Shown here: one piece after another, positions 2,981 through 9,732 of the stretch
Numbering within the stretch: the stretch's first letter is position 1
Layout of the letters: the number at the start of each line of letters is the position of its first letter
DNA from: a virus
DNA length: 10,777 bases
Reading direction: 5' to 3' (one strand)
Virus genome (UHGV): UHGV-0117503
Made by a program: the position numbers and the translations under genes
Notes under the pieces: model-generated
Told to the model about the DNA's origin: nothing
The model's database searches: none
The model's input: the letters and a program-made list of their open reading frames with translations, nothing else

Positions 2981-4957
2981 TCACCTCCATTTAAACCGAG
3001 GTGAATATTCCCCGTTATTGAATCTTCCTATACTTACCTGTATTGTCGCCGGAGAATCAGAAAGAACCTCGGTGCTATGCAATGATAGTATAAGTGATGA
3101 TGATTCTATATCTCTATCTGCTTCGACCACATAACCATAATCTCGTTCTGGCTCTGTAAAATAAGCTATTGGTTTTCCGTTTGCTGCAATGGTAAATCTT
3201 CCACCAACAAATTTACCCTTGAACATAACATGTATTTTTATCCGAGTAACTCCCTTCGGTAAAACACAACCAGCATTTAATGATGCTGTAGAGTTTATAT
3301 TGAAATCTTTCCTTATCACTGTGTATGGAATTGCATATAAAGCTTCAGCAAAGTTTGATTGAGACTGATACTCTGTCGCAGCAATAGAGCTCCCCCCCAT
3401 AATTCTAAATCCTCCAACACCGGAGAACACACTATTAAAAGCATCCACAGCTTTCGTAAAGTTACCAATACAAACAGGTGTTTCTGCATCATTAATGAAT
3501 TGTTCCCTTGAATACAATGTCACACTGTTTATATATGTACTTTTATAACCACCAATATCATCAGGGCTTAAAAATCCATACCCATTGGAACCATCAGATA
3601 CGCCATTAAATTCTGTATAATAGCTACAAAATTCGTTAGATGATCTTGGAGATGTCTCAATCCATCCAAATCCAAAATTTCTCTCTGACTGAATATTGCT
3701 ATAAGTACACCCACTACTCCGCGTTATAAGGCCTGCGCCACTATAGCGCGTCGCTGAGTCTGGTGATGGGTCAAAATCACCATTGCGACCATTTGTGTGT
3801 GTACGTATACGTAAAAAACTAACAGAATTTACAGCCAAATCATCAGTTTCTCCTTGAGTAGGATAACCAATAACAACTCCGCGCCCATAGTTATCATGTG
3901 CAACTATTGTTCCAAATGAACAGAACCAAGACTGATAAACTGATATGCCGACGACACGAGCATTTATGGCTGTAATATTGTCGCAATGTGACTCATTTGT
4001 AAAATATCTAAAATAAAATCCATTTGTCGCCTTATTATCACAATCAGAAATTATATTTGTAATTCTTACTGAGCTTACATCTTCAGTTGGTGTAACTCCA
4101 ATTGGAGAGCGAGAGCATCTAATAACAGCCTTTTTAATTGCAACATCCCCAATCCATTTAATGGTTGTAGCAAATCTATTACCTGCTCGCAGAGAATTTC
4201 CATATCCTCTCATATCCAAGCCATTTGGAGGCACAAACTCATCTGTAATTCCAATAACACCAGCTGGAAGGATTAAAGGTAGTTTATTATCAGATGCGAA
4301 TTTAGCAGCACTGGTTAACTCATTAATTGAATCTTTTTCTCCATTTAAATTAACCCCCCACCATTTTAATAGAACTTCTCCATTGATATTTCGTTTCCAC
4401 CGCCTCCCAATTGCGTCAATAAGTATTGTTCCTCCATTATCTTGAGATGTAGAATCATACTTATCAATTTCAAATATTCCATTTCCACCATCAAATATAT
4501 TTCGCACACCATATACATAGCATCTATGCATATTCCCGCTATAATTTCTAATATCTTCGTAATTTGCTCCACCTATATATCCCAAACCGAAGCTTTGAGA
4601 TAATTGAACTTTAAATTGATCAGGTTCATACTTCAGCACATTCGGAAAATAAAACTGCTGAGCACCGTATGCATCATAAACAGCCATAGAATGGCCTTGC
4701 ACAGTTACGAACTTGGCAATCTGTCCGTTATATACCGGGTAACCAGCAGCGTTAATGATGATTGGTTGCGAAACAGGAACGTGAGAGCCGTCTTCGTTCT
4801 CCATATAAACCTGAATCTGGTTTTCTGGATTTACGGGGTCCGTGTCAATTTTACCGATATAAATTTTGCCATTGGCTACCGCTTTAAAAGAACGAGCCAT
4901 AGTGAAGAGTTGCGAAGGCATGCTTACCACAACATTGGCATTTATTGAATCTGTCAT
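2981..4957 (-). CDS. Tailspike protein: P22/Sf6-like head-binding N-terminal domain with a divergent receptor-binding (probable beta-helix depolymerase) domain
   Basis: The N-terminus [51 protein letters not shown]...[27 protein letters not shown] matches the conserved P22/Sf6 tailspike N-terminal domain from memory. The start is set at the internal ATG (4957..4955) that gives MTD..., not the upstream start at 5002 in the ORF track. The remaining ~540 aa are rich in G/N/S/T/I/V. Confidence 0.88.
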
Positions 4958-4982
4958 TTTAATTTCTCTATATGTTAAGCAA

Positions 4983-5016
4983 GCAATATTCATTGCTAGC
5001 ATGTTTTTTGTATAAT
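4983..5016 (+). promoter_or_regulatory. Putative sigma70 promoter for the HNH gene, in the divergent tailspike/HNH intergenic region
   Basis: A consensus TATAAT sits at 5011-5016 directly preceded by TTG, with a small palindrome GCAAT-ATTC-ATTGC at 4983-4996 upstream. No convincing -35 element at 17-bp spacing. Confidence 0.3.
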
Positions 5017-5044
5017 GAGTGAACTTTATTTAAAGGTGGTTAAC

Positions 5045-5554
5045 ATGAACTGGAACGAAGTATTCGTATTAAAAGACGATGGACTCCTGTACTGGAGTGA
5101 CCAATATCTTTCAAGACCCAAAATGTTCAATATTTCTAAAGAAAAGCCTACAGGACATATATTCAAGGACAAGAACAGGAAAACATCTTATATAATTATC
5201 AGGTATCAAGATAAAATATACGCCGCCCATAGGATAATATGGGAAATGTTTTATGGTGAAATCCCTTCAGGAATGCAAATTGACCATAAAGATGGTAATG
5301 GGTTAAATAATTCAATAGACAACCTGCGTCTAGTTAGTCTCGGTGAAAACCTAAAAAACAAATCTAAATACACAAACAATACATCTGGGTGCGCAGGTGT
5401 TTCATGGCATAAGACCCATAAAAAGTGGGTGGCATATATTAGCGACGCAGGGAAGCGCATTAATCTCGGATACTTTAAGTGTCTCGATGATGCAATTGCT
5501 GTAAGGCGTGATGCTGAAAAGACCTATGGTTATCATGAGAATCATGGTAGGTGA
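5045..5554 (+). CDS. HNH endonuclease with a C-terminal AP2-like DNA-binding domain (homing-endonuclease-like)
   Basis: Motif IDHKDGNGLNNSIDNLRLVS is HNH-like, followed by GVSWHKTHKKWVAYIS...KRINLGYFKCLDDAIAVRRDAEKTYG, which is AP2-like. The start is set at ATG 5045, which has AAGGTGG 5 nt upstream; the ORF track begins at 5015. Confidence 0.8.
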   Translation: MNWNEVFVLKDDGLLYWSDQYLSRPKMFNISKEKPTGHIFKDKNRKTSYIIIRYQDKIYAAHRIIWEMFYGEIPSGMQIDHKDGNGLNNSIDNLRLVSLGENLKNKSKYTNNTSGCAGVSWHKTHKKWVAYISDAGKRINLGYFKCLDDAIAVRRDAEKTYGYHENHGR

Positions 5555-5685
5555 TATCTGACATTTCATTGCTCCAGACGAATGATATGATGCAACCATG
5601 ATGTGATTGCATACCGAAATGGTACTATTGAGTATTTATCCAGTAGGTTACGATGCCATTCCACCCAACTGGTGAGGCATCAAGG

Positions 5686-5946
5686 ATGTACAGCAAATAC
5701 GACGAGGCGCAGTTTCACTTGAGACTTCCGCATGAACTCCACGCGAAAATTAAACAGCGCGCGAAGATGAATAACAGGTCGCTGAACTCAGAGATAATTG
5801 CAGCGATTGAAGAATCATTGGCTAAACAAAGCTCTGCATCAGTTTACATTGACGATGCAGAGCGTATGGCAGAACAACAATCTGATATGGTTAAGAAAAT
5901 TGTCTTTGATACGCTCAAAGAGCTATATAAAAAAGACAGCAGCTAA
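5686..5946 (+). CDS. mnt: Mnt-like ribbon-helix-helix repressor (P22 immI-type)
   Basis: The C-terminal half DDAERMAEQQSDMVKKIVFDTLKELYKKDSS closely matches P22 Mnt (...NDAERLADEQSELVKKMVFDTLKDLYKK) as I recall it, and the N-terminal region FHLRLPHELHAKIKQRAKMNNRSLNSEI is RHH-like. The start is set at ATG 5686 (GAGG 8 nt upstream), not the track start at 5653. Confidence 0.8.
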   Translation: MYSKYDEAQFHLRLPHELHAKIKQRAKMNNRSLNSEIIAAIEESLAKQSSASVYIDDAERMAEQQSDMVKKIVFDTLKELYKKDSS

Positions 5947-5966
5947 CTATCAGTTACGGAGGATTT

Positions 5967-6044
5967 ATGCAAAGAGATATGCTGAATATTGCGTTCTACA
6001 TATTTGGTTTTTGCACGTTCCTGGTGTTTGCGAAGCTATTCTGA
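5967..6044 (+). CDS. Hypothetical 25-aa hydrophobic peptide (possible single-pass membrane protein)
   Basis: GGAGGA at 5958-5963 is followed by ATG at 5967. The ORF encodes MQRDMLNIAFYIFGFCTFLVFAKLF and stops at TGA 6042-6044, 21 nt after mnt on the same strand. It is absent from the ORF track because of its size; it is unproven. Confidence 0.25.
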   Translation: MQRDMLNIAFYIFGFCTFLVFAKLF

Positions 6045-7199
6045 CAACGCATCAGACTTGGCACCTTGAGTCAGGGCGTTAATGGCCTTTTGCGCCTGCT
6101 GCATGGCTTTCTCAAACGCTGTTGATCCGCGTGGGGTGTTTGCCATTCGGAGCATTGCATTTCTGAATGGCTCGCTCTCATAGGCGCGAGTAAGAAGTCC
6201 GTAGCTTACCGCTGCGCCAGTTGTCGCCGGGTTCATTGCCGTCCCATATCCGATAATGAACGGGATGGTTTGCTGCCCTGTTGGTGTTGTTACTGCTGCT
6301 TTTGCAGCCTGCTGCGTGGATTGCAGGTAGTTTTTCAATCCTTTCAGATAAGCGGCTTCATGACCTTTAAATGTGATGCCAGTCTGGTTTTGCAGGATAT
6401 TAAGCTGCCGAAGGAACTGGTCAGGGGATCCGCCAGATTTCTCCATCGCCTTTCCAATGATGCCATTGCGCATTTGCGCCCTGCCAACACGACCAACTGA
6501 GTTATACAGCGTCTTAATTTCAGATTTGTTCTTGCTGAATAGCATGTTGTTGACAACTTCCGGCGTCAGGTCGCCTTTCATGAGAACATTCTTCAGCCTG
6601 GTATTCTTTAGTTTCGCCGCTTCGTCAGCGTAGACGGCATTGGCCTGCTGATATTTACGAAGAGTATCATTGCCAAGATTCTGACCAATGGCACCATTGA
6701 TATCGTCGGTCATCGCCTTGTAAACTCGCTGAATGGCAGCATCGGAACGGTTTGGTAACACTGGTCGCTCACCCTTCACGTCCATTCTGAACTGGCTGCG
6801 CAGATCGCTTAATTGCTTCAAATCCAGATTGACCGGACCATCAGGACCAGCATTGCGAACAAGCTCATCACGATATGACTGAAGTTTTGAAATAGTCTCG
6901 TTATCAGCCACCTTACCAAGCTTCTGCAGATTAGATATCTCAGTATCAATCTGCTGAATTGCTCGCGCAGGCTGAATGTTTACTCCAGCCATAGCATTCT
7001 GAACCTGCTCCAGTCGATTACCGGCGGCACGCCGAATTCCTGATGTTTTCGCTTTAAGGCTGTCAATAACAACTGCCGGATCGTACTCGCCGAATTTATC
7101 AGCAAATCTCTGCACCAACTGACTTCTCGCTTCCTGTTGCGTTGCTCTCATTCCGCTTGTGCCAGCCAGGGGGATATTTTCTGCTGTGGTCTGCGCCAT
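6036..7199 (-). CDS. Virion ejection/internal protein, probably the C-terminal part of the lytic-transglycosylase protein encoded upstream (387-aa ORF)
   Basis: Long ORF in the late-gene orientation. Its frame is open upstream of the ATG at 7199 as far as a stop at 7334..7332 and reads protein-like there (GAIAPEAQQAIRFAEREGVPLHTTDLLQPTSRVGK). It overlaps the upstream ORF by 52 nt. Confidence 0.6.
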   Translation of the reverse strand: MAQTTAENIPLAGTSGMRATQQEARSQLVQRFADKFGEYDPAVVIDSLKAKTSGIRRAAGNRLEQVQNAMAGVNIQPARAIQQIDTEISNLQKLGKVADNETISKLQSYRDELVRNAGPDGPVNLDLKQLSDLRSQFRMDVKGERPVLPNRSDAAIQRVYKAMTDDINGAIGQNLGNDTLRKYQQANAVYADEAAKLKNTRLKNVLMKGDLTPEVVNNMLFSKNKSEIKTLYNSVGRVGRAQMRNGIIGKAMEKSGGSPDQFLRQLNILQNQTGITFKGHEAAYLKGLKNYLQSTQQAAKAAVTTPTGQQTIPFIIGYGTAMNPATTGAAVSYGLLTRAYESEPFRNAMLRMANTPRGSTAFEKAMQQAQKAINALTQGAKSDALSE

Positions 7200-8413
7200 T
7201 TTCCCGACGCGGGAAGTAGGCTGTAACAGGTCTGTGGTGTGCAGAGGAACTCCTTCACGCTCTGCAAATCTGATAGCCTGCTGCGCTTCTGGCGCAATAG
7301 CACCACGAACGCCACGATACGTCCGGCAGCGTTAATAGCACCGCCAGCCAACACACCAACGCCTAAATCGGTGGCGAGTGCTTCCGCATCATCTTTCGCA
7401 CTATTTGCAGCAAGTGATCCAACTGCGTTTTCAGCGAGAAGGCGAGTTGCCCCCTGAGCAATTCGACCAGCAAGTGTTGGTGCCTGTGTTGCCGCTCTCT
7501 CAACGCCAGCAGGAGTGAGGTAAGGCAACGCTTCAGCAAATACCCTTCCCTCTGTCGTTTGTGGAGTCAGCGCGCCTTGCTGAAGGCCAAAGTCCTGCTC
7601 TAATCCCTGCGTTGTTACTCGTGGCGCTGGTTGATATGTACCATCGCCAATGCCGAGTTTACCGCCAGCCCAAGCCGCCGCGCTTGTTACAGCATCAGTG
7701 AGTTCAGCAGGTATGTTCGCTACGTTGATTCCTGCCTGTAGTAAGCCGCGCCCGGTTTCAGCAAGTCCATTACCAAGGTCAGACATTATTCCGCCTTGTT
7801 GCTGAACAGGTTTCGGTGCGACAGAACTTACGGGTTGAGGTGGCTGCTGACTGGCTGCCTGCTGCTCAATCTGAGCAAATGGATTATTTGGGTCTGACTG
7901 CACACCTGATGCCGATACTTGTTCGGATGACTGTACTTCCAGTTGTGCAAACGGGTTGTTAGGGTCTTGCTGAGGATGTACCTTTGCAGAGGTGGCGCGC
8001 TGTTCGACTGTTGAGTCTGTCACCGGGTCACCCGCCCATTGAGCAAAGCGATCATCAACGTAACCGCGGCCTTCAGGTCCTGGCGTATATTCACCACGCT
8101 TTGCCTTCATAACGTTGCCGGGACCGTCGTGATAAGCCTGAAGAGCGTCACGCCAGTTACCAAACTGCTGGTACATCTTTGCCAGATAGCGCGCGCCAGC
8201 GTCAGCCTGATATTCGGGGTTTTGCATTTGCTCATCGGTATAACCCATATCACGCCATGTCCCAGGCATGACCTGAGTCAATCCTACAGCCCCGGCGGAG
8301 CTTACTGCGGCAGGGTTGTAAGAAGACTCCTTGGCACCCAGTGCAGTCATCAACCCTTCTGGCACACCGTAACGTGCGCCAGCCTGCTCTAACAAATCAC
8401 GGTAATTAGCCAT
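7148..8413 (-). CDS. Virion ejection/internal protein with an N-terminal lytic transglycosylase (SLT) domain; the last ~55 codons of this frame are probably out of frame
   Basis: N-terminal GAKESSYNPAAVSSAGAVGLTQVMPGTW...YLAKMY is a classic SLT catalytic-region signature. A Q/P-rich linker carries a duplicated DPNNPFAQ motif. The C-terminal stretch of this frame (RIVAFVVLLRQKRSRLSDLQSVKEFLCTPQTCYSLLPASGKWRRPQQ...) looks like non-coding translation. Confidence 0.75.
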   Translation of the reverse strand: MANYRDLLEQAGARYGVPEGLMTALGAKESSYNPAAVSSAGAVGLTQVMPGTWRDMGYTDEQMQNPEYQADAGARYLAKMYQQFGNWRDALQAYHDGPGNVMKAKRGEYTPGPEGRGYVDDRFAQWAGDPVTDSTVEQRATSAKVHPQQDPNNPFAQLEVQSSEQVSASGVQSDPNNPFAQIEQQAASQQPPQPVSSVAPKPVQQQGGIMSDLGNGLAETGRGLLQAGINVANIPAELTDAVTSAAAWAGGKLGIGDGTYQPAPRVTTQGLEQDFGLQQGALTPQTTEGRVFAEALPYLTPAGVERAATQAPTLAGRIAQGATRLLAENAVGSLAANSAKDDAEALATDLGVGVLAGGAINAAGRIVAFVVLLRQKRSRLSDLQSVKEFLCTPQTCYSLLPASGKWRRPQQKISPWLAQAE

Positions 8414-9211
8414 TTACTGCCCCAAAGATGGAAGATATCCGTAGCGATTAATGAAGTCGATTGACAGCTCGGGGTGCTGCTTCAGGTAATCTATAGAAGC
8501 CTGAGGCGCTTCCACTCGCTTGATACCGTTTTGCTGAACGTACTTACCAACCGCCTCATTACGCTTCTGGTTGAGCGTGTTCAGGATGACGCCAGCGTTG
8601 CGACGAAAGGACTCCTCGCTCTGCGAGTTCTGCAGCGAACCAACAGCCTGGTCGAGCTTTTTGCCCTCGGCATCAGAAAGTGCGCCCATGCCTCGCATGG
8701 CCTGAACCGCTGTCAGGTATGCTTGTGATTTAAAGGTATCAAGTCGTGCCTGAGTGTCTGCAGCCTGTGAGCCTGGAACGTTGGGGATTACTCCACGTAA
8801 GCCTGTAATGCTCTTAAGTGAAGGAGAACTAACGATATCGTTCAGAGTGAACATGCTGGTTGTGAGGGTGTTGATGCCGTCTTTGTAGCCATCATTTAGC
8901 GCTTGCTGCTTCTGCTGCAACTGCTGGTTGTTGGCTGCTATGCGGCTCTGTATTTCCTGGCGCTTCAGGTCGTTAGTTTCTGCTGATAGCATCCGGTCAA
9001 GGCGCTTATTTTCGTTGTTAATGCGGTTTGTTTCTGCGTCCAGATTAATGCGCTGCTGACCTAAATTCGCCTGGATATCTTGCCCGCGCATTGTGATTGC
9101 CTGATTCCGAGCGGCGGTTTGCGAATCCAGATCCTGACCGCGCATGGTAACCTGGCGACCCTGCATTTTATCCTGTAGGTCAAAGTATTTTTCGGGTCCG
9201 AGACTGTTCAT
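8414..9211 (-). CDS. Virion ejection/internal protein (265 aa) with a Q-rich coiled-coil-like region
   Basis: Its start ATG overlaps the stop of the upstream gene (ATGA at 9208-9211), and its stop TAA (8416..8414) directly abuts the ATG of the SLT protein. The content RIAANNQQLQQKQQALNDGYKDG is typical of phage internal proteins. It sits between the gene-7 and gene-16 positions of P22. Confidence 0.7.
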   Translation of the reverse strand: MNSLGPEKYFDLQDKMQGRQVTMRGQDLDSQTAARNQAITMRGQDIQANLGQQRINLDAETNRINNENKRLDRMLSAETNDLKRQEIQSRIAANNQQLQQKQQALNDGYKDGINTLTTSMFTLNDIVSSPSLKSITGLRGVIPNVPGSQAADTQARLDTFKSQAYLTAVQAMRGMGALSDAEGKKLDQAVGSLQNSQSEESFRRNAGVILNTLNQKRNEAVGKYVQQNGIKRVEAPQASIDYLKQHPELSIDFINRYGYLPSLGQ

Positions 9212-9732
9212 CCCAGGTGATCGAACTGCCGCGGGTTCTGTTGGTACATCTGAGCGACGTCCTGAGGATTAACGCCAACACGAGCTAACTCACCGGCGTT
9301 GTTTTGCAGCCATGATTGCATTGCTTCTGGAGACGATGACGCAAGGCGTGCGCCAGCCGCTAAGGTGCCGATAGAATTACGCTGATCTTCATCAATGAAT
9401 CCCATGCCTTTACGAACGGATTCAATCTGGTCTGGATATTGAGTAGCCAACTGACGCAAAGCACTGCGATCACCAGACGCATAAGCATTAGCGTACGCCT
9501 GCTGAAATTCTTTCTGCCGCTGAGCCTGCTTTTCCTGCTGAAACACCCCTGCAATACCTGAAAGGCCTTGCAAAGCAGTCAGCCCAACATTGTTAGCGCC
9601 TGAACGCTCAATATCATTGTTCTGCCTGATAAGCTGAAGCGTATTGCCGATGTCATTTACGCTCGGAGCGTTTGAGTTGACGCCGCCGATACCAGCCAAC
9701 AATCCGCCGTTTGTTCCTTGCCAAGTAGCCAT
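9208..9732 (-). CDS. Virion ejection/internal protein (174 aa)
   Basis: ATG at 9732..9730 has AAGGGG upstream. The product is G/A/Q/N-rich, and the gene is tightly coupled to its neighbours on both sides. Confidence 0.7.
   Translation of the reverse strand: MATWQGTNGGLLAGIGGVNSNAPSVNDIGNTLQLIRQNNDIERSGANNVGLTALQGLSGIAGVFQQEKQAQRQKEFQQAYANAYASGDRSALRQLATQYPDQIESVRKGMGFIDEDQRNSIGTLAAGARLASSSPEAMQSWLQNNAGELARVGVNPQDVAQMYQQNPRQFDHLG

What the first reader, a model, noticed from the sequence alone, without database searches (positions are those of the whole stretch)
5555..5946. Orphan Mnt-like repressor without arc or ant
The Mnt homologue is well conserved in its C-terminal tetramerisation region, but its known target system (arc and ant under Pant) is absent from the window. 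What it represses here is unclear; candidates are its own promoter, the HNH gene, or late-region read-through into the tailspike. An imperfect inverted repeat CCACC-N5-GGTGA at 5661-5675 overlaps the mnt RBS, and ATGAT-type repeats at 5581-5606 lie upstream. Both are weak operator candidates.
Basis: partly seen in the sequence, partly recalled or inferred. Interest (0 to 1): 0.45.

Follow-up and report, generated by a model that had tools for sequence, protein, structure and literature searches.

The report
Lone Mnt repressor with own operator

Summary
The gene is real. The mnt CDS is 5686-5946 (86 aa), has Arc and Repressor_Mnt Pfam domains, and is 49% identical to P22 Mnt. The window holds the whole gene-16-to-tailspike interval and contains no arc, ant or sar.

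The arrangement is ordinary. All 80 IMG/VR loci with a Mnt at least 95% identical lack arc and ant. Sf101, IME10, VSe13, L, ST160, Gally and JEP4 also place mnt directly against the tailspike. The literature already describes mnt-only "ant morons".

The gene is selectively maintained (pN/pS 0.14 overall, 0.03 in the DNA-binding domain).

The best operator is ATACCGAAATGGTAC at 5611-5625. It lies 2 bp upstream of the Pmnt -35, exactly where Omnt lies in P22. It is invariant across divergent relatives, co-varies with the recognition residues across three Mnt classes, and occurs once in the complete Sf101 genome.

The ATGAT repeats belong to the tailspike leader.

The HNH gene is a later mobile insertion (4938-5549) inside the first codons of the tailspike gene, not a Mnt target.

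The most likely function is autoregulation of mnt plus an unannotated 25-aa ORF. Silencing of residual leftward transcription is possible.

The parts
5686..5946 (+). mnt coding sequence (86 aa plus stop): N-terminal ribbon-helix-helix domain and C-terminal Mnt tetramerisation helix
   Evidence: Pfam Arc and Repressor_Mnt. 49% identity to P22 Mnt. PDB 1mnt and 1qey. pN/pS 0.14 overall and 0.03 in residues 1-45 across 52 alleles.
5611..5625 (.). Predicted Mnt operator, ATACC-GAAAT-GGTAC (core TACC-N5-GGTA). It is the positional homologue of P22 Omnt.
   Evidence: Same position and half-site spacing as P22 GTCC-N5-GGAC, ending 2 bp before the Pmnt -35. TACC, AAA and GTAC are invariant in 9 divergent upstream regions. 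Present at the canonical place in 156 of 161 loci, with other hits at chance level. A single copy in the window and in the complete Sf101 genome.
5628..5654 (+). Predicted Pmnt: -35 TTGAGT (5628-5633), 15-nt spacer, -10 TACGAT (5649-5654), predicted start near 5661
   Evidence: Positional homology to the annotated P22 Pmnt TTGAGA-17-TATCAT. ATTG and TTACGATGC are invariant. Homologues in JEP4, L and Gally score 8.4-11.2 with a 17-nt spacer. Not tested experimentally.
5661..5675 (+). Probably a small RNA hairpin, or a weak second site.
   Evidence: Present. The CACC/GGTG stem is kept while the loop varies in sequence and length, 4-5 nt. Lost or re-registered in L009, L010 and L155, which keep the main operator and the same recognition residues. 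RNA fold z = -0.45.
5590..5612 (-). 9-bp-arm inverted repeat ATGCAACCA-N5-TGATTGCAT (includes the ATGAT repeats). Hairpin of the former tailspike 5' leader.
   Evidence: -9 kcal/mol, z = -2.4. In other phages with the same Mnt class it is replaced by the unrelated P22-type hairpin CACCGTAGCCATGCTGCGGC, so it is not tied to Mnt specificity.
5631..5659 (-). Vestige of the Pant position on the minus strand: -35 ATGGCA (5659-5654), 17 nt, -10 AATACT (5636-5631). The start would fall inside the operator.
   Evidence: PWM score 6.8, against 17.1 for P22 Pant and a median of 6.2 for random 136-mers of the window. The hexamers are not conserved across class C subtypes.
5550..5564 (-). Remnant of the original tailspike start (ATGTCAGATATCACC = MSDIT) left behind by the HNH insertion
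   Evidence: Identical to the start of the tailspike gene in HNH-free relatives.
4938..5549 (+). Inserted HNH cassette. It carries new tailspike codons 1-7 (4938-4957, minus strand), an 87-bp spacer with a TATAAT promoter (5011-5016), and all but the last 5 bases of the HNH_3/AP2 endonuclease gene (full CDS 5045-5554; its TGA stop at 5552-5554 lies in the tailspike remnant).
   Evidence: It replaces 3 bp of the empty site. Pfam HNH_3 1.3e-20. Absent from about 65 of 80 close relatives, and a different HNH (42% identity) occupies the same site in 7. The same HNH protein lies between tailspike and ant in E. coli NRG857C.
5967..6044 (+). Unannotated 25-aa hydrophobic ORF (MQRDMLNIAFYIFGFCTFLVFAKLF) 20 nt downstream of mnt, with a GGAGG Shine-Dalgarno. 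Probably the second gene of the mnt operon.
   Evidence: Intact in 77 loci and 30 nucleotide alleles, pN/pS 0.23, variable sites 14/8/5 at codon positions 3/1/2. No terminator predicted between mnt and the ORF. No family match. Not annotated in RefSeq.
2981..4957 (-). Tailspike gene (true start [11 protein letters not shown] at 4957)
   Evidence: Pfam Head_binding 7.8e-65.
6036..7199 (-). C-terminal part of the gene 16-like DNA transfer protein. It marks the other edge of the ant-moron interval.
   Evidence: PHROG 770 1.6e-157.

Best explanation
The window is the late-operon end of a P22-like (Lederbergvirus) E. coli prophage. Its 'ant moron' has been reduced to mnt alone.

Shown:
- The gene encodes a bona fide Mnt-family repressor, with a ribbon-helix-helix DNA-binding domain and the Mnt tetramerisation helix.
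- It is under strong purifying selection.
- It always travels with a 15-bp near-palindrome (ATACC-N5-GGTAC, 5611-5625). This site sits 2 bp upstream of the -35 of the mnt promoter, which is the place and geometry of Omnt in P22.
- Three of the four P22 base-contacting positions (residues recalled from the literature) differ: R2 to Y, H6 to Q, N8 to H. The half-site differs in step: GTCC to TACC.
- No other copy of the site and no ant gene exist in a complete phage genome carrying the same mnt.

Inferred:
- A Mnt tetramer binds this single operator.
- The strong divergent Pant promoter of P22 has decayed. The main consequence of binding is therefore autoregulation of the lysogen-expressed operon from Pmnt, which comprises mnt and a conserved 25-aa membrane-peptide ORF.
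- Binding would at the same time occlude any residual leftward initiation at the old Pant position. Such initiation would run towards the tailspike, and in this window it would first pass through the antisense HNH insert.
- The HNH gene is an independent homing-type insertion. It targets the conserved 5' end of tailspike genes and is not part of the Mnt circuit.
For: Identity.

Orphan state is the norm. 0 of 80 close loci have arc or ant. Sf101, IME10, VSe13, JEP4, Gally, L and ST160 have mnt facing the tailspike. Literature: PMC2629481, PMC8022706.

Orphan state is derived by deletion. L153 keeps a 3' ant fragment and Tant beyond the operator.

Selection. pN/pS is 0.14 overall and 0.03 in the RHH domain. 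Nucleotide diversity at 4-fold sites of mnt is 0.072, against 0.013 in the intergenic region and 0.007 in the operator.

Operator. Positional homology to the annotated P22 Omnt and Pmnt. Three classes with covarying strand residues and palindromes. Invariance across E. coli, Buttiauxella, Serratia and Salmonella-phage versions whose leftward flanks are unrelated. 156 of 161 loci carry the site, with a chance-level background elsewhere. It is unique in the window and in the Sf101 genome, which has no ant. The one locus with an in-frame stop in mnt (L011) also has a mutated half-site.

Promoters. Pmnt homologues score 8.4-11.2. Leftward candidates score 6.8 or less, against 17.1 for P22 Pant.

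Small ORF.

HNH independence.
Against: No binding or transcription data exist for this Mnt class. The operator assignment rests on homology of position, conservation and covariation only.

The window-type Pmnt has a 15-nt spacer and does not rank among the top PWM hits.

Whether binding about 43 bp upstream of the start activates, represses or does nothing at Pmnt cannot be told from sequence.

This mnt class always abuts the tailspike, even in phages that carry antirepressor modules on its other side. That is equally what a tailspike-directed role would predict.

The low diversity of the whole intergenic region may partly reflect recombination history rather than constraint.
Confidence: 0.6

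Rival explanations
1. Mnt here mainly silences leftward transcription into the tailspike gene in the lysogen. The operator still overlaps the start of a weak Pant-derived promoter. With arc and ant deleted, that promoter would read straight into the tailspike, passing first through the antisense HNH insert in this window. Repression would prevent prophage-borne tailspike from cutting the host's own O-antigen.
For: The operator is at the Omnt position relative to the old Pant. A minus-strand ATGGCA-17-AATACT keeps the critical -11A and -7T. In about 160 loci this mnt class always faces the tailspike, even when KilA/Rha antirepressor modules with their own repressors lie on its other side. A conserved hairpin and RBS follow directly towards the tailspike. 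Villafane et al. suggest Mnt and Arc may affect tailspike levels (PMC2629481). Prophage tailspike shortens the O-antigen in BTP1 lysogens that lack GtrC (PMC4413052).
Against: The leftward promoter scores 6.8, which is the median of random windows, against 17.1 for P22 Pant. Its hexamers are not conserved among class C subtypes or in class B orphans. The adjacency can be explained by history alone, as a deletion of arc-ant.
Confidence: 0.2
2. The gene is a decaying remnant of immI with no present function.
For: The phage L authors raise this possibility (PMC8022706). One Citrobacter locus has an in-frame stop and a mutated operator. One IMG/VR allele is truncated at 31 aa. The prophage in this window has indels that split its gene 16- and gene 20-like ORFs.
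Against: pN/pS is 0.14 overall and 0.03 in the DNA-binding domain. 78 of 83 copies are full length. The N-terminal recognition strand is invariant. The operator and promoter are conserved across genera. A match to the queried 4900-6100 region is found in 651 of 5426 complete E. coli genomes, though this count also includes partial hits to the tailspike or gene 16 ends.
Confidence: 0.07
3. The reader's site CCACC-N5-GGTGA (5661-5675) is a genuine second Mnt operator at +1 of Pmnt, giving negative autoregulation.
For: It shares ACC-nAAnT-GGT (9 of 15 positions) and the 5-bp spacing with the main operator (comparison). It lies at the predicted transcription start. Its CACC/GGTG arms are kept in most E. 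coli variants while the centre varies.
Against: The spacer length varies between 4 and 5 bp. The repeat is lost or re-registered in L009, L010, L155 and L157, which keep the same recognition residues and the main operator. A homologous but different hairpin occurs in class B phages, whose Mnt recognises a different sequence. It is not above chance in the window. A Mnt tetramer is already satisfied by one 17-bp operator in P22 (established knowledge, recalled rather than tested here).
Confidence: 0.1
4. The orphan Mnt acts in trans as an immunity factor. It would shut off the Pant of superinfecting P22-like phages that carry the same operator class, protecting the resident prophage from antirepressor-driven induction.
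For: This is what prophage Mnt does to superinfecting P22 (established knowledge). The gene is maintained without a cis target.
Against: No class C operator was found next to any ant, KilA or Rha gene in 161 loci and 1.1 Mb, so no target phage is known.
Confidence: 0.03

Closest known systems
Phage P22 Mnt repressor and the immI region (mnt / Omnt / Pmnt-Pant / arc / sar / ant)
   Same: The domain architecture is the same (RHH plus C-terminal tetramerisation helix), with 49% identity. The genome position is the same: between gene 16 and the tailspike, on the strand opposite the late operon. A palindromic operator ends 1-2 bp before the Pmnt -35, with the same half-site spacing (XXCC-N5-GGXX).
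   Different: There is no arc, ant or sar. The strong Pant (TTGACA-17-TATATT) is gone. Three of four base-contacting residues differ, and so does the operator sequence (TACC, not GTCC). No P22 Omnt-like sequence is found even at 3 mismatches.
mnt-only 'ant morons' of phages L, ST64T, ST104, ST160 and Gally (Salmonella and E. coli)
   Same: mnt faces the tailspike directly, without arc or ant, and a palindromic operator and Pmnt are retained. The function is unknown in the literature (PMC2629481, PMC8022706).
   Different: They belong to a different specificity class (strand RDDPQFNLRLP, operator AAGACCACGGTGGTCTT). The downstream gene differs (orf62 and similar, not the 25-aa ORF). They have no HNH insert.
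Phages Sf101 and IME10, and E. coli prophages such as that of strain W
   Same: mnt, operator, promoter and intergenic region are 98-100% identical.
   Different: They lack the 612-bp HNH cassette, so their tailspike starts 121 bp from mnt.
Free-standing HNH homing endonuclease genes of phages (for the inserted cassette only)
   Same: HNH_3 plus an AP2-like DNA-binding domain, and its own promoter. Presence and absence are polymorphic at one precise site. Unrelated HNH genes occupy the same site. The same gene occurs in different flanking contexts.
   Different: It lies inside the first codons of an essential gene and restores that gene by supplying a new start and N-terminal codons. Cleavage activity and target were not tested.

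Membership tests
Mnt repressor family (Arc/MetJ ribbon-helix-helix superfamily) | N-terminal ribbon-helix-helix (Arc-like) DNA-binding domain | tested here: met
   Pfam PF03869 7.5e-15, residues 7-49. PDB 1mnt 3.4e-19.
Mnt repressor family (Arc/MetJ ribbon-helix-helix superfamily) | C-terminal Mnt tetramerisation helix | tested here: met
   Pfam PF11423 3.4e-14, residues 57-82. PDB 1qey 1.7e-8.
Mnt repressor family (Arc/MetJ ribbon-helix-helix superfamily) | Located between the gene 16 and tailspike homologues of a P22-like phage, on the strand opposite the late operon | tested here: met
   Gene map of the window, and the same map in relatives.
Mnt repressor family (Arc/MetJ ribbon-helix-helix superfamily) | A symmetric operator of about 17 bp abutting the -35 of its own promoter | tested here: met
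   ATACCGAAATGGTAC at 5611-5625, 2 bp from TTGAGT. Positional homology, invariance and covariation support it. The site is present in the sequence.
Mnt repressor family (Arc/MetJ ribbon-helix-helix superfamily) | Sequence-specific binding of the tetramer to that operator | not testable with these tools
   Needs EMSA or footprinting.
Complete P22-type immI region | arc gene divergent from mnt | tested here: not met
   No Arc hit other than mnt itself in the window or in 80 close loci.
Complete P22-type immI region | ant antirepressor gene downstream of arc | tested here: not met
   No Ant, KilA or Rha hit in the window. None in the complete Sf101 genome apart from the usual Rha-like gene near the lysis genes.
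Complete P22-type immI region | Strong Pant promoter overlapped by Omnt | tested here: not met
   The best minus-strand candidate scores 6.8, against 17.1 for P22 Pant.
Type II toxin-antitoxin module (RHH antitoxin plus downstream toxin). Considered because of the small ORF after mnt. | Downstream gene belonging to a known toxin family | tested here: not met
   The 25-aa ORF has no Pfam, NCBIfam or PHROG match. The JEP4-type copies of this Mnt class lack the ORF.
Free-standing HNH homing endonuclease (inserted cassette) | HNH nuclease motif with an attached DNA-binding domain | tested here: met
   Pfam HNH_3 1.3e-20. The AP2 match (8.7e-5, 23.2 bits) is below the gathering score. PHROG 99 1.6e-57.
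Free-standing HNH homing endonuclease (inserted cassette) | Presence/absence polymorphism at a precise site among otherwise near-identical genomes | tested here: met
   A 612-bp insert replaces 3 bp. It is absent in about 65 of 80 relatives and present in different contexts.
Free-standing HNH homing endonuclease (inserted cassette) | Cleavage of the empty target site | not testable with these tools
   Needs an in-vitro cleavage or co-infection homing assay.

The most novel reading that the evidence does not exclude
The lone Mnt has been re-purposed as the autoregulator of a small prophage-expressed operon. The cargo of that operon is an unannotated, selectively maintained 25-aa membrane peptide (5967-6044). 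Its function is undescribed; a superinfection-exclusion or toxin-like role is possible. The same operator-bound tetramer would also keep the adjacent tailspike gene silent in lysogens. If so, 'orphan' Mnt repressors would be a family of exchangeable specificity modules (at least three repressor/operator classes) that control lysogenic-conversion cargo rather than an antirepressor.
Probability: 0.2. Interest if true: 0.45.

Novelty: new member of a known kind. Interest (0 to 1): 0.27.

Why it matters
The practical value is modest but concrete. It corrects the annotation: the mnt start is 5686, and many records name this protein 'partition protein ATPase'. It identifies the probable operator and promoter of a Mnt type that is widespread in complete E. 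coli genomes. It also shows that mnt-only regions are selectively maintained rather than decaying, which speaks to a question left open in the phage L and epsilon34 genome papers.

The three repressor/operator classes form a natural specificity series for ribbon-helix-helix recognition. They could be tested directly against the classic Mnt and Arc specificity work.

Two side observations may be more useful than the original finding. One is a conserved 25-aa ORF behind mnt. The other is HNH cassettes that insert inside the first codons of tailspike genes and rebuild the gene's start.

Tried and rejected
- P22 Omnt itself (GGTCCACSGTGGACC) was searched in the window with up to 3 mismatches and gave no match.
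- HNH as a Mnt target was rejected. The cassette is a minority insertion, has its own TATAAT promoter and has no operator copy. The same HNH gene also sits next to ant in another prophage.
- The ATGAT repeats and the 5590-5612 inverted repeat were rejected as the Mnt operator. Phages with the same Mnt recognition residues have an unrelated P22-type hairpin at that position.
- A second operator copy at the antirepressor modules of JEP4-type phages was searched for. Only chance-level hits were found.
- A sigma-70 scan and a PWM scan looked for a leftward promoter. Nothing scored above the random-window median.
- A genome-contig scan with the single protein returned only 5 loci. These were useful as distant relatives but too few for statistics.
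- Literature searches for transcription-start data on orphan mnt regions found nothing usable.
- The diversity comparison for the small ORF was invalid, because some loci in that set have a different downstream module. The restricted analysis was used instead.
- Structure prediction and the large protein-database searches were not run, because family identity was already unambiguous.

Full report
**What the window is.** The window is the right-hand end of the late operon of a P22-like (Lederbergvirus) prophage of E. coli. The 4900-6100 segment is 99% identical to a prophage next to tRNA-Arg and intS in E. coli 23CRST042. The gene order is:
- gtrA (partial), gtrB and a gtrC-like gene on the plus strand
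- tailspike, 2981-4957, minus strand (Head_binding 7.8e-65)
- an HNH_3/AP2 endonuclease, 5045-5554, plus strand
- mnt, 5686-5946, plus strand
- the gene 16-, 20- and 7-like ejection genes, minus strand

**Check of the observation.**
- The Mnt homologue is real. Pfam gives Arc and Repressor_Mnt. It is 49% identical to P22 Mnt, with the C-terminal 30 residues the most similar. PDB hits are 1mnt and the tetramerisation-domain entry 1qey.
The conserved start is 5686, which is also the RefSeq call. The 5653 ATG overlaps the predicted -10 of the promoter.
- No arc or ant is detectable in the window. The window contains the entire gene 16-to-tailspike interval, so these genes are absent rather than merely out of view.
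- CCACC-N5-GGTGA is at 5661-5675. The ATGAT repeats are at 5582-5602. Neither exceeds chance on its own.

**The arrangement is common and already described.**
- All 80 IMG/VR loci encoding a Mnt at least 95% identical lack arc and ant. About 65 have mnt directly divergent from the tailspike, with a 121-bp spacer. About 6 carry the window's HNH gene, and 7 carry a different HNH (42% identity) at the same place.
- Phages Sf101, IME10, VSe13, JEP4, Gally, L and ST160 have the same mnt-against-tailspike layout.
- 651 of 5426 complete E. coli genomes have a match to the queried 4900-6100 region; this count also includes partial hits to the tailspike or gene 16 ends.
- Villafane et al. named this interval the 'ant moron' and noted that ST64T, ST104 and Para1 contain only mnt plus one unknown gene (PMC2629481).
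- Locus L153 still has a 3' ant fragment and the ant terminator beyond the operator. The orphan state is therefore derived by deletion, apparently at the short repeated sequence CACCGTAGCCAYGCTGCGGC. That sequence also flanks gene 9 in P22.

**The gene is not a relic.**
- Across 52 nucleotide alleles, pN/pS is 0.14 overall, 0.03 in residues 1-45, 0.66 in the linker and 0.19 in the C-terminal helix.
- 78 of 83 copies are full length, and the N-terminal strand is invariant.
- Within one set of 72 loci, diversity at 4-fold sites of mnt is 0.072. It is 0.013 in the mnt-tailspike spacer and 0.007 in the proposed operator.

**Where Mnt binds.**
- In P22, read in the mnt direction, the annotated Omnt AGGTCCACCGTGGACCT ends one base before the Pmnt -35 (A-TTGAGA-17-TATCAT).
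- The window has ATACCGAAATGGTAC (5611-5625), then TA, then TTGAGT (5628-5633), a 15-nt spacer and TACGAT (5649-5654). The half-site geometry is the same as in P22: TACC-N5-GGTA against GTCC-N5-GGAC.
- Comparison across phages gives three classes:
  - P22 and epsilon34: strand RDDPHFNFRMP, operator AGGTCCACCGTGGACCT
  - L, ST160 and Gally: strand RDDPQFNLRLP, operator A(A/G)GACCAC(G/T)GTGGTCTT
  - this class: strand YDEAQFHLRLP, operator (A/G)TACC-NAAAN-GGTAC
- In nine class C upstream regions from E. coli, another Escherichia, Buttiauxella, Serratia, Citrobacter and Salmonella phage VSe13, the leftward flanks are unrelated. TACC, AAA, GTAC, the ATTG of the -35 and TTACGATGC of the -10 are nevertheless invariant.
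- The motif is at the canonical place in 156 of 161 class C loci. Two of the five exceptions lack the upstream DNA and two have single substitutions. The 12 other occurrences in 1.1 Mb are what chance predicts.
- The motif occurs once in the window. It also occurs once, at 0-1 mismatch, in the complete Sf101 genome, which has no ant gene.
- The single locus whose mnt carries an in-frame stop (Citrobacter L011) also has a mutated half-site.
- No P22-type Omnt is present, even at three mismatches.

- 5661-5675 lies at the predicted 5' end of the mnt mRNA and overlaps the GGTGAGG Shine-Dalgarno region. Its CACC/GGTG arms persist while the centre varies in sequence and in length (4-5 nt).
- Class B phages have a different hairpin at the homologous place. 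L009, L010 and L155 lose or shift the repeat while keeping the same recognition residues and the main operator. That pattern fits a small RNA hairpin better than a repressor site.
- It does share ACC-nAAnT-GGT with the main operator, so a weak second site is not excluded.
- The ATGAT repeats are part of the inverted repeat at 5590-5612 (-9 kcal/mol, z = -2.4). In other class C phages this is replaced by the unrelated P22-type hairpin upstream of gene 9. It belongs to the tailspike leader, not to Mnt.

**What Mnt regulates.**
- With a simple PWM, P22 Pant scores 17.1 and Pmnt 13.5. Pmnt homologues in JEP4, L and Gally score 8.4-11.2. The best leftward candidates at the old Pant position score 6.8 or less, and the median for random 136-mers of the window is 6.2. 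The strong divergent promoter has gone, while the operator and Pmnt remain.
- The operator centre is about 43 bp upstream of the predicted mnt start.
- Directly after mnt, with no predicted terminator between them, lies an ORF with a GGAGG Shine-Dalgarno. It encodes a 25-aa hydrophobic peptide. It is intact in 77 loci, has pN/pS 0.23, and its variation is enriched at third codon positions. It has no family match and is not annotated in RefSeq.
- My best reading is that Mnt autoregulates a small lysogen-expressed operon (mnt plus this ORF) and incidentally blocks residual leftward initiation.
- The main rival is that silencing of transcription into the tailspike is the selected function. This mnt class always abuts the tailspike, even when KilA/Rha antirepressor modules with their own repressors lie on its other side. 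Prophage tailspike is also known to damage the lysogen's O-antigen in BTP1 (PMC4413052). Sequence alone cannot decide between the two.

**The HNH gene.**
- Compared with HNH-free relatives, window 4938-5549 is a 612-bp insert that replaces 3 bp after codon 5 of the tailspike gene.
- The original start ATGTCAGATATCACC remains as a remnant at 5550-5564 on the minus strand, and it supplies the HNH stop codon.
- The cassette brings a new tailspike start (MTDSINA), a new leader with its own hairpin and a TATAAT promoter for the HNH gene.
- The identical HNH protein sits between the tailspike and ant in E. coli NRG857C, with the same kind of junction. Kapi1 has an HNH gene at the same place.
- The cassette is therefore a mobile element aimed at the conserved 5' end of tailspike genes. 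It is unrelated to Mnt.

**Verdict.** The 'orphan' status is ordinary and documented, and the proposed operators are not the best candidates. What is new is limited to three things: a well-supported operator and promoter assignment for this Mnt class, evidence that mnt-only regions are maintained by selection, and two side observations (the 25-aa ORF and the HNH insertion site).

Noticed in passing
window 5967-6044 (+): Unannotated 25-aa hydrophobic ORF (MQRDMLNIAFYIFGFCTFLVFAKLF) with a GGAGG Shine-Dalgarno, 20 nt after mnt. It is intact in 77 related loci and 30 nucleotide alleles, with pN/pS 0.23 and variation enriched at third codon positions. It has no family match and is absent from RefSeq annotation.
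   Followed up: partly
window 4938-5549; also L046, L057, L065, L075, L083, L088, L091, L097 (Kapi1) and L179 (NRG857C): HNH endonuclease cassettes insert after codon 5 of tailspike genes and rebuild the gene with a new start, N-terminal codons and leader. At least two unrelated HNH genes (42% identity) use the same site, and the same HNH gene occurs in different flanking contexts. This looks like a homing hotspot in the conserved head-binding 5' end.
   Followed up: partly
window about 7280-7323 and about 9215: Relative to close relatives, the window has small deletions. They split the gene 16-like gene into two ORFs (7148-8413 and 6036-7199) and the gene 20-like gene into two (9208-9732 and 8414-9211). 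This is either a decaying prophage or sequence errors.
   Followed up: partly
window 91-about 280 (+): The ORF at the left edge begins with a GC-rich stretch (MDVTEAVVDEAIGHRANLIVSHHPLLFHPLRR...). By eye it resembles a NIF3/YbgI-type protein, and it is fused in frame to GtrA-like sequence (PHROG GtrA match from residue 47). This could be a junction or an assembly chimera.
   Followed up: no
window 4978-5000; window 5590-5612; L092 3390-3410; P22 L006 3158-3180: Every version of the tailspike leader has a hairpin about 25-50 nt upstream of the start codon, although the sequences are unrelated. The P22-type one (CACCGTAGCCAYGCTGCGGC) is also repeated after the ant terminator and marks deletion and recombination junctions.
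   Followed up: partly
L092 (JEP4) 3770-6430 and about 45 IMG/VR loci among L099-L172: Many phages with this Mnt class carry a KilA/Rha-type antirepressor module on the gene 16 side of mnt. That module is paired with a second Arc/Mnt-like or a C2-like repressor, so it forms a separate immunity-like module in the same 'ant moron'.
   Followed up: partly
L001 (Sf101), L006 (P22) and several RefSeq phage records: Mnt homologues are widely mis-named 'partition protein ATPase' in RefSeq phage records and in PHROG 795. Sf101 annotates the over-long 97-aa ORF.
   Followed up: no
L011 (Citrobacter) 3410-3520: The mnt gene has an in-frame TAG at codon 5, and the adjacent operator half-site is mutated (GGTAC to AGTAC). 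This looks like joint decay of repressor and site in one lineage.
   Followed up: no
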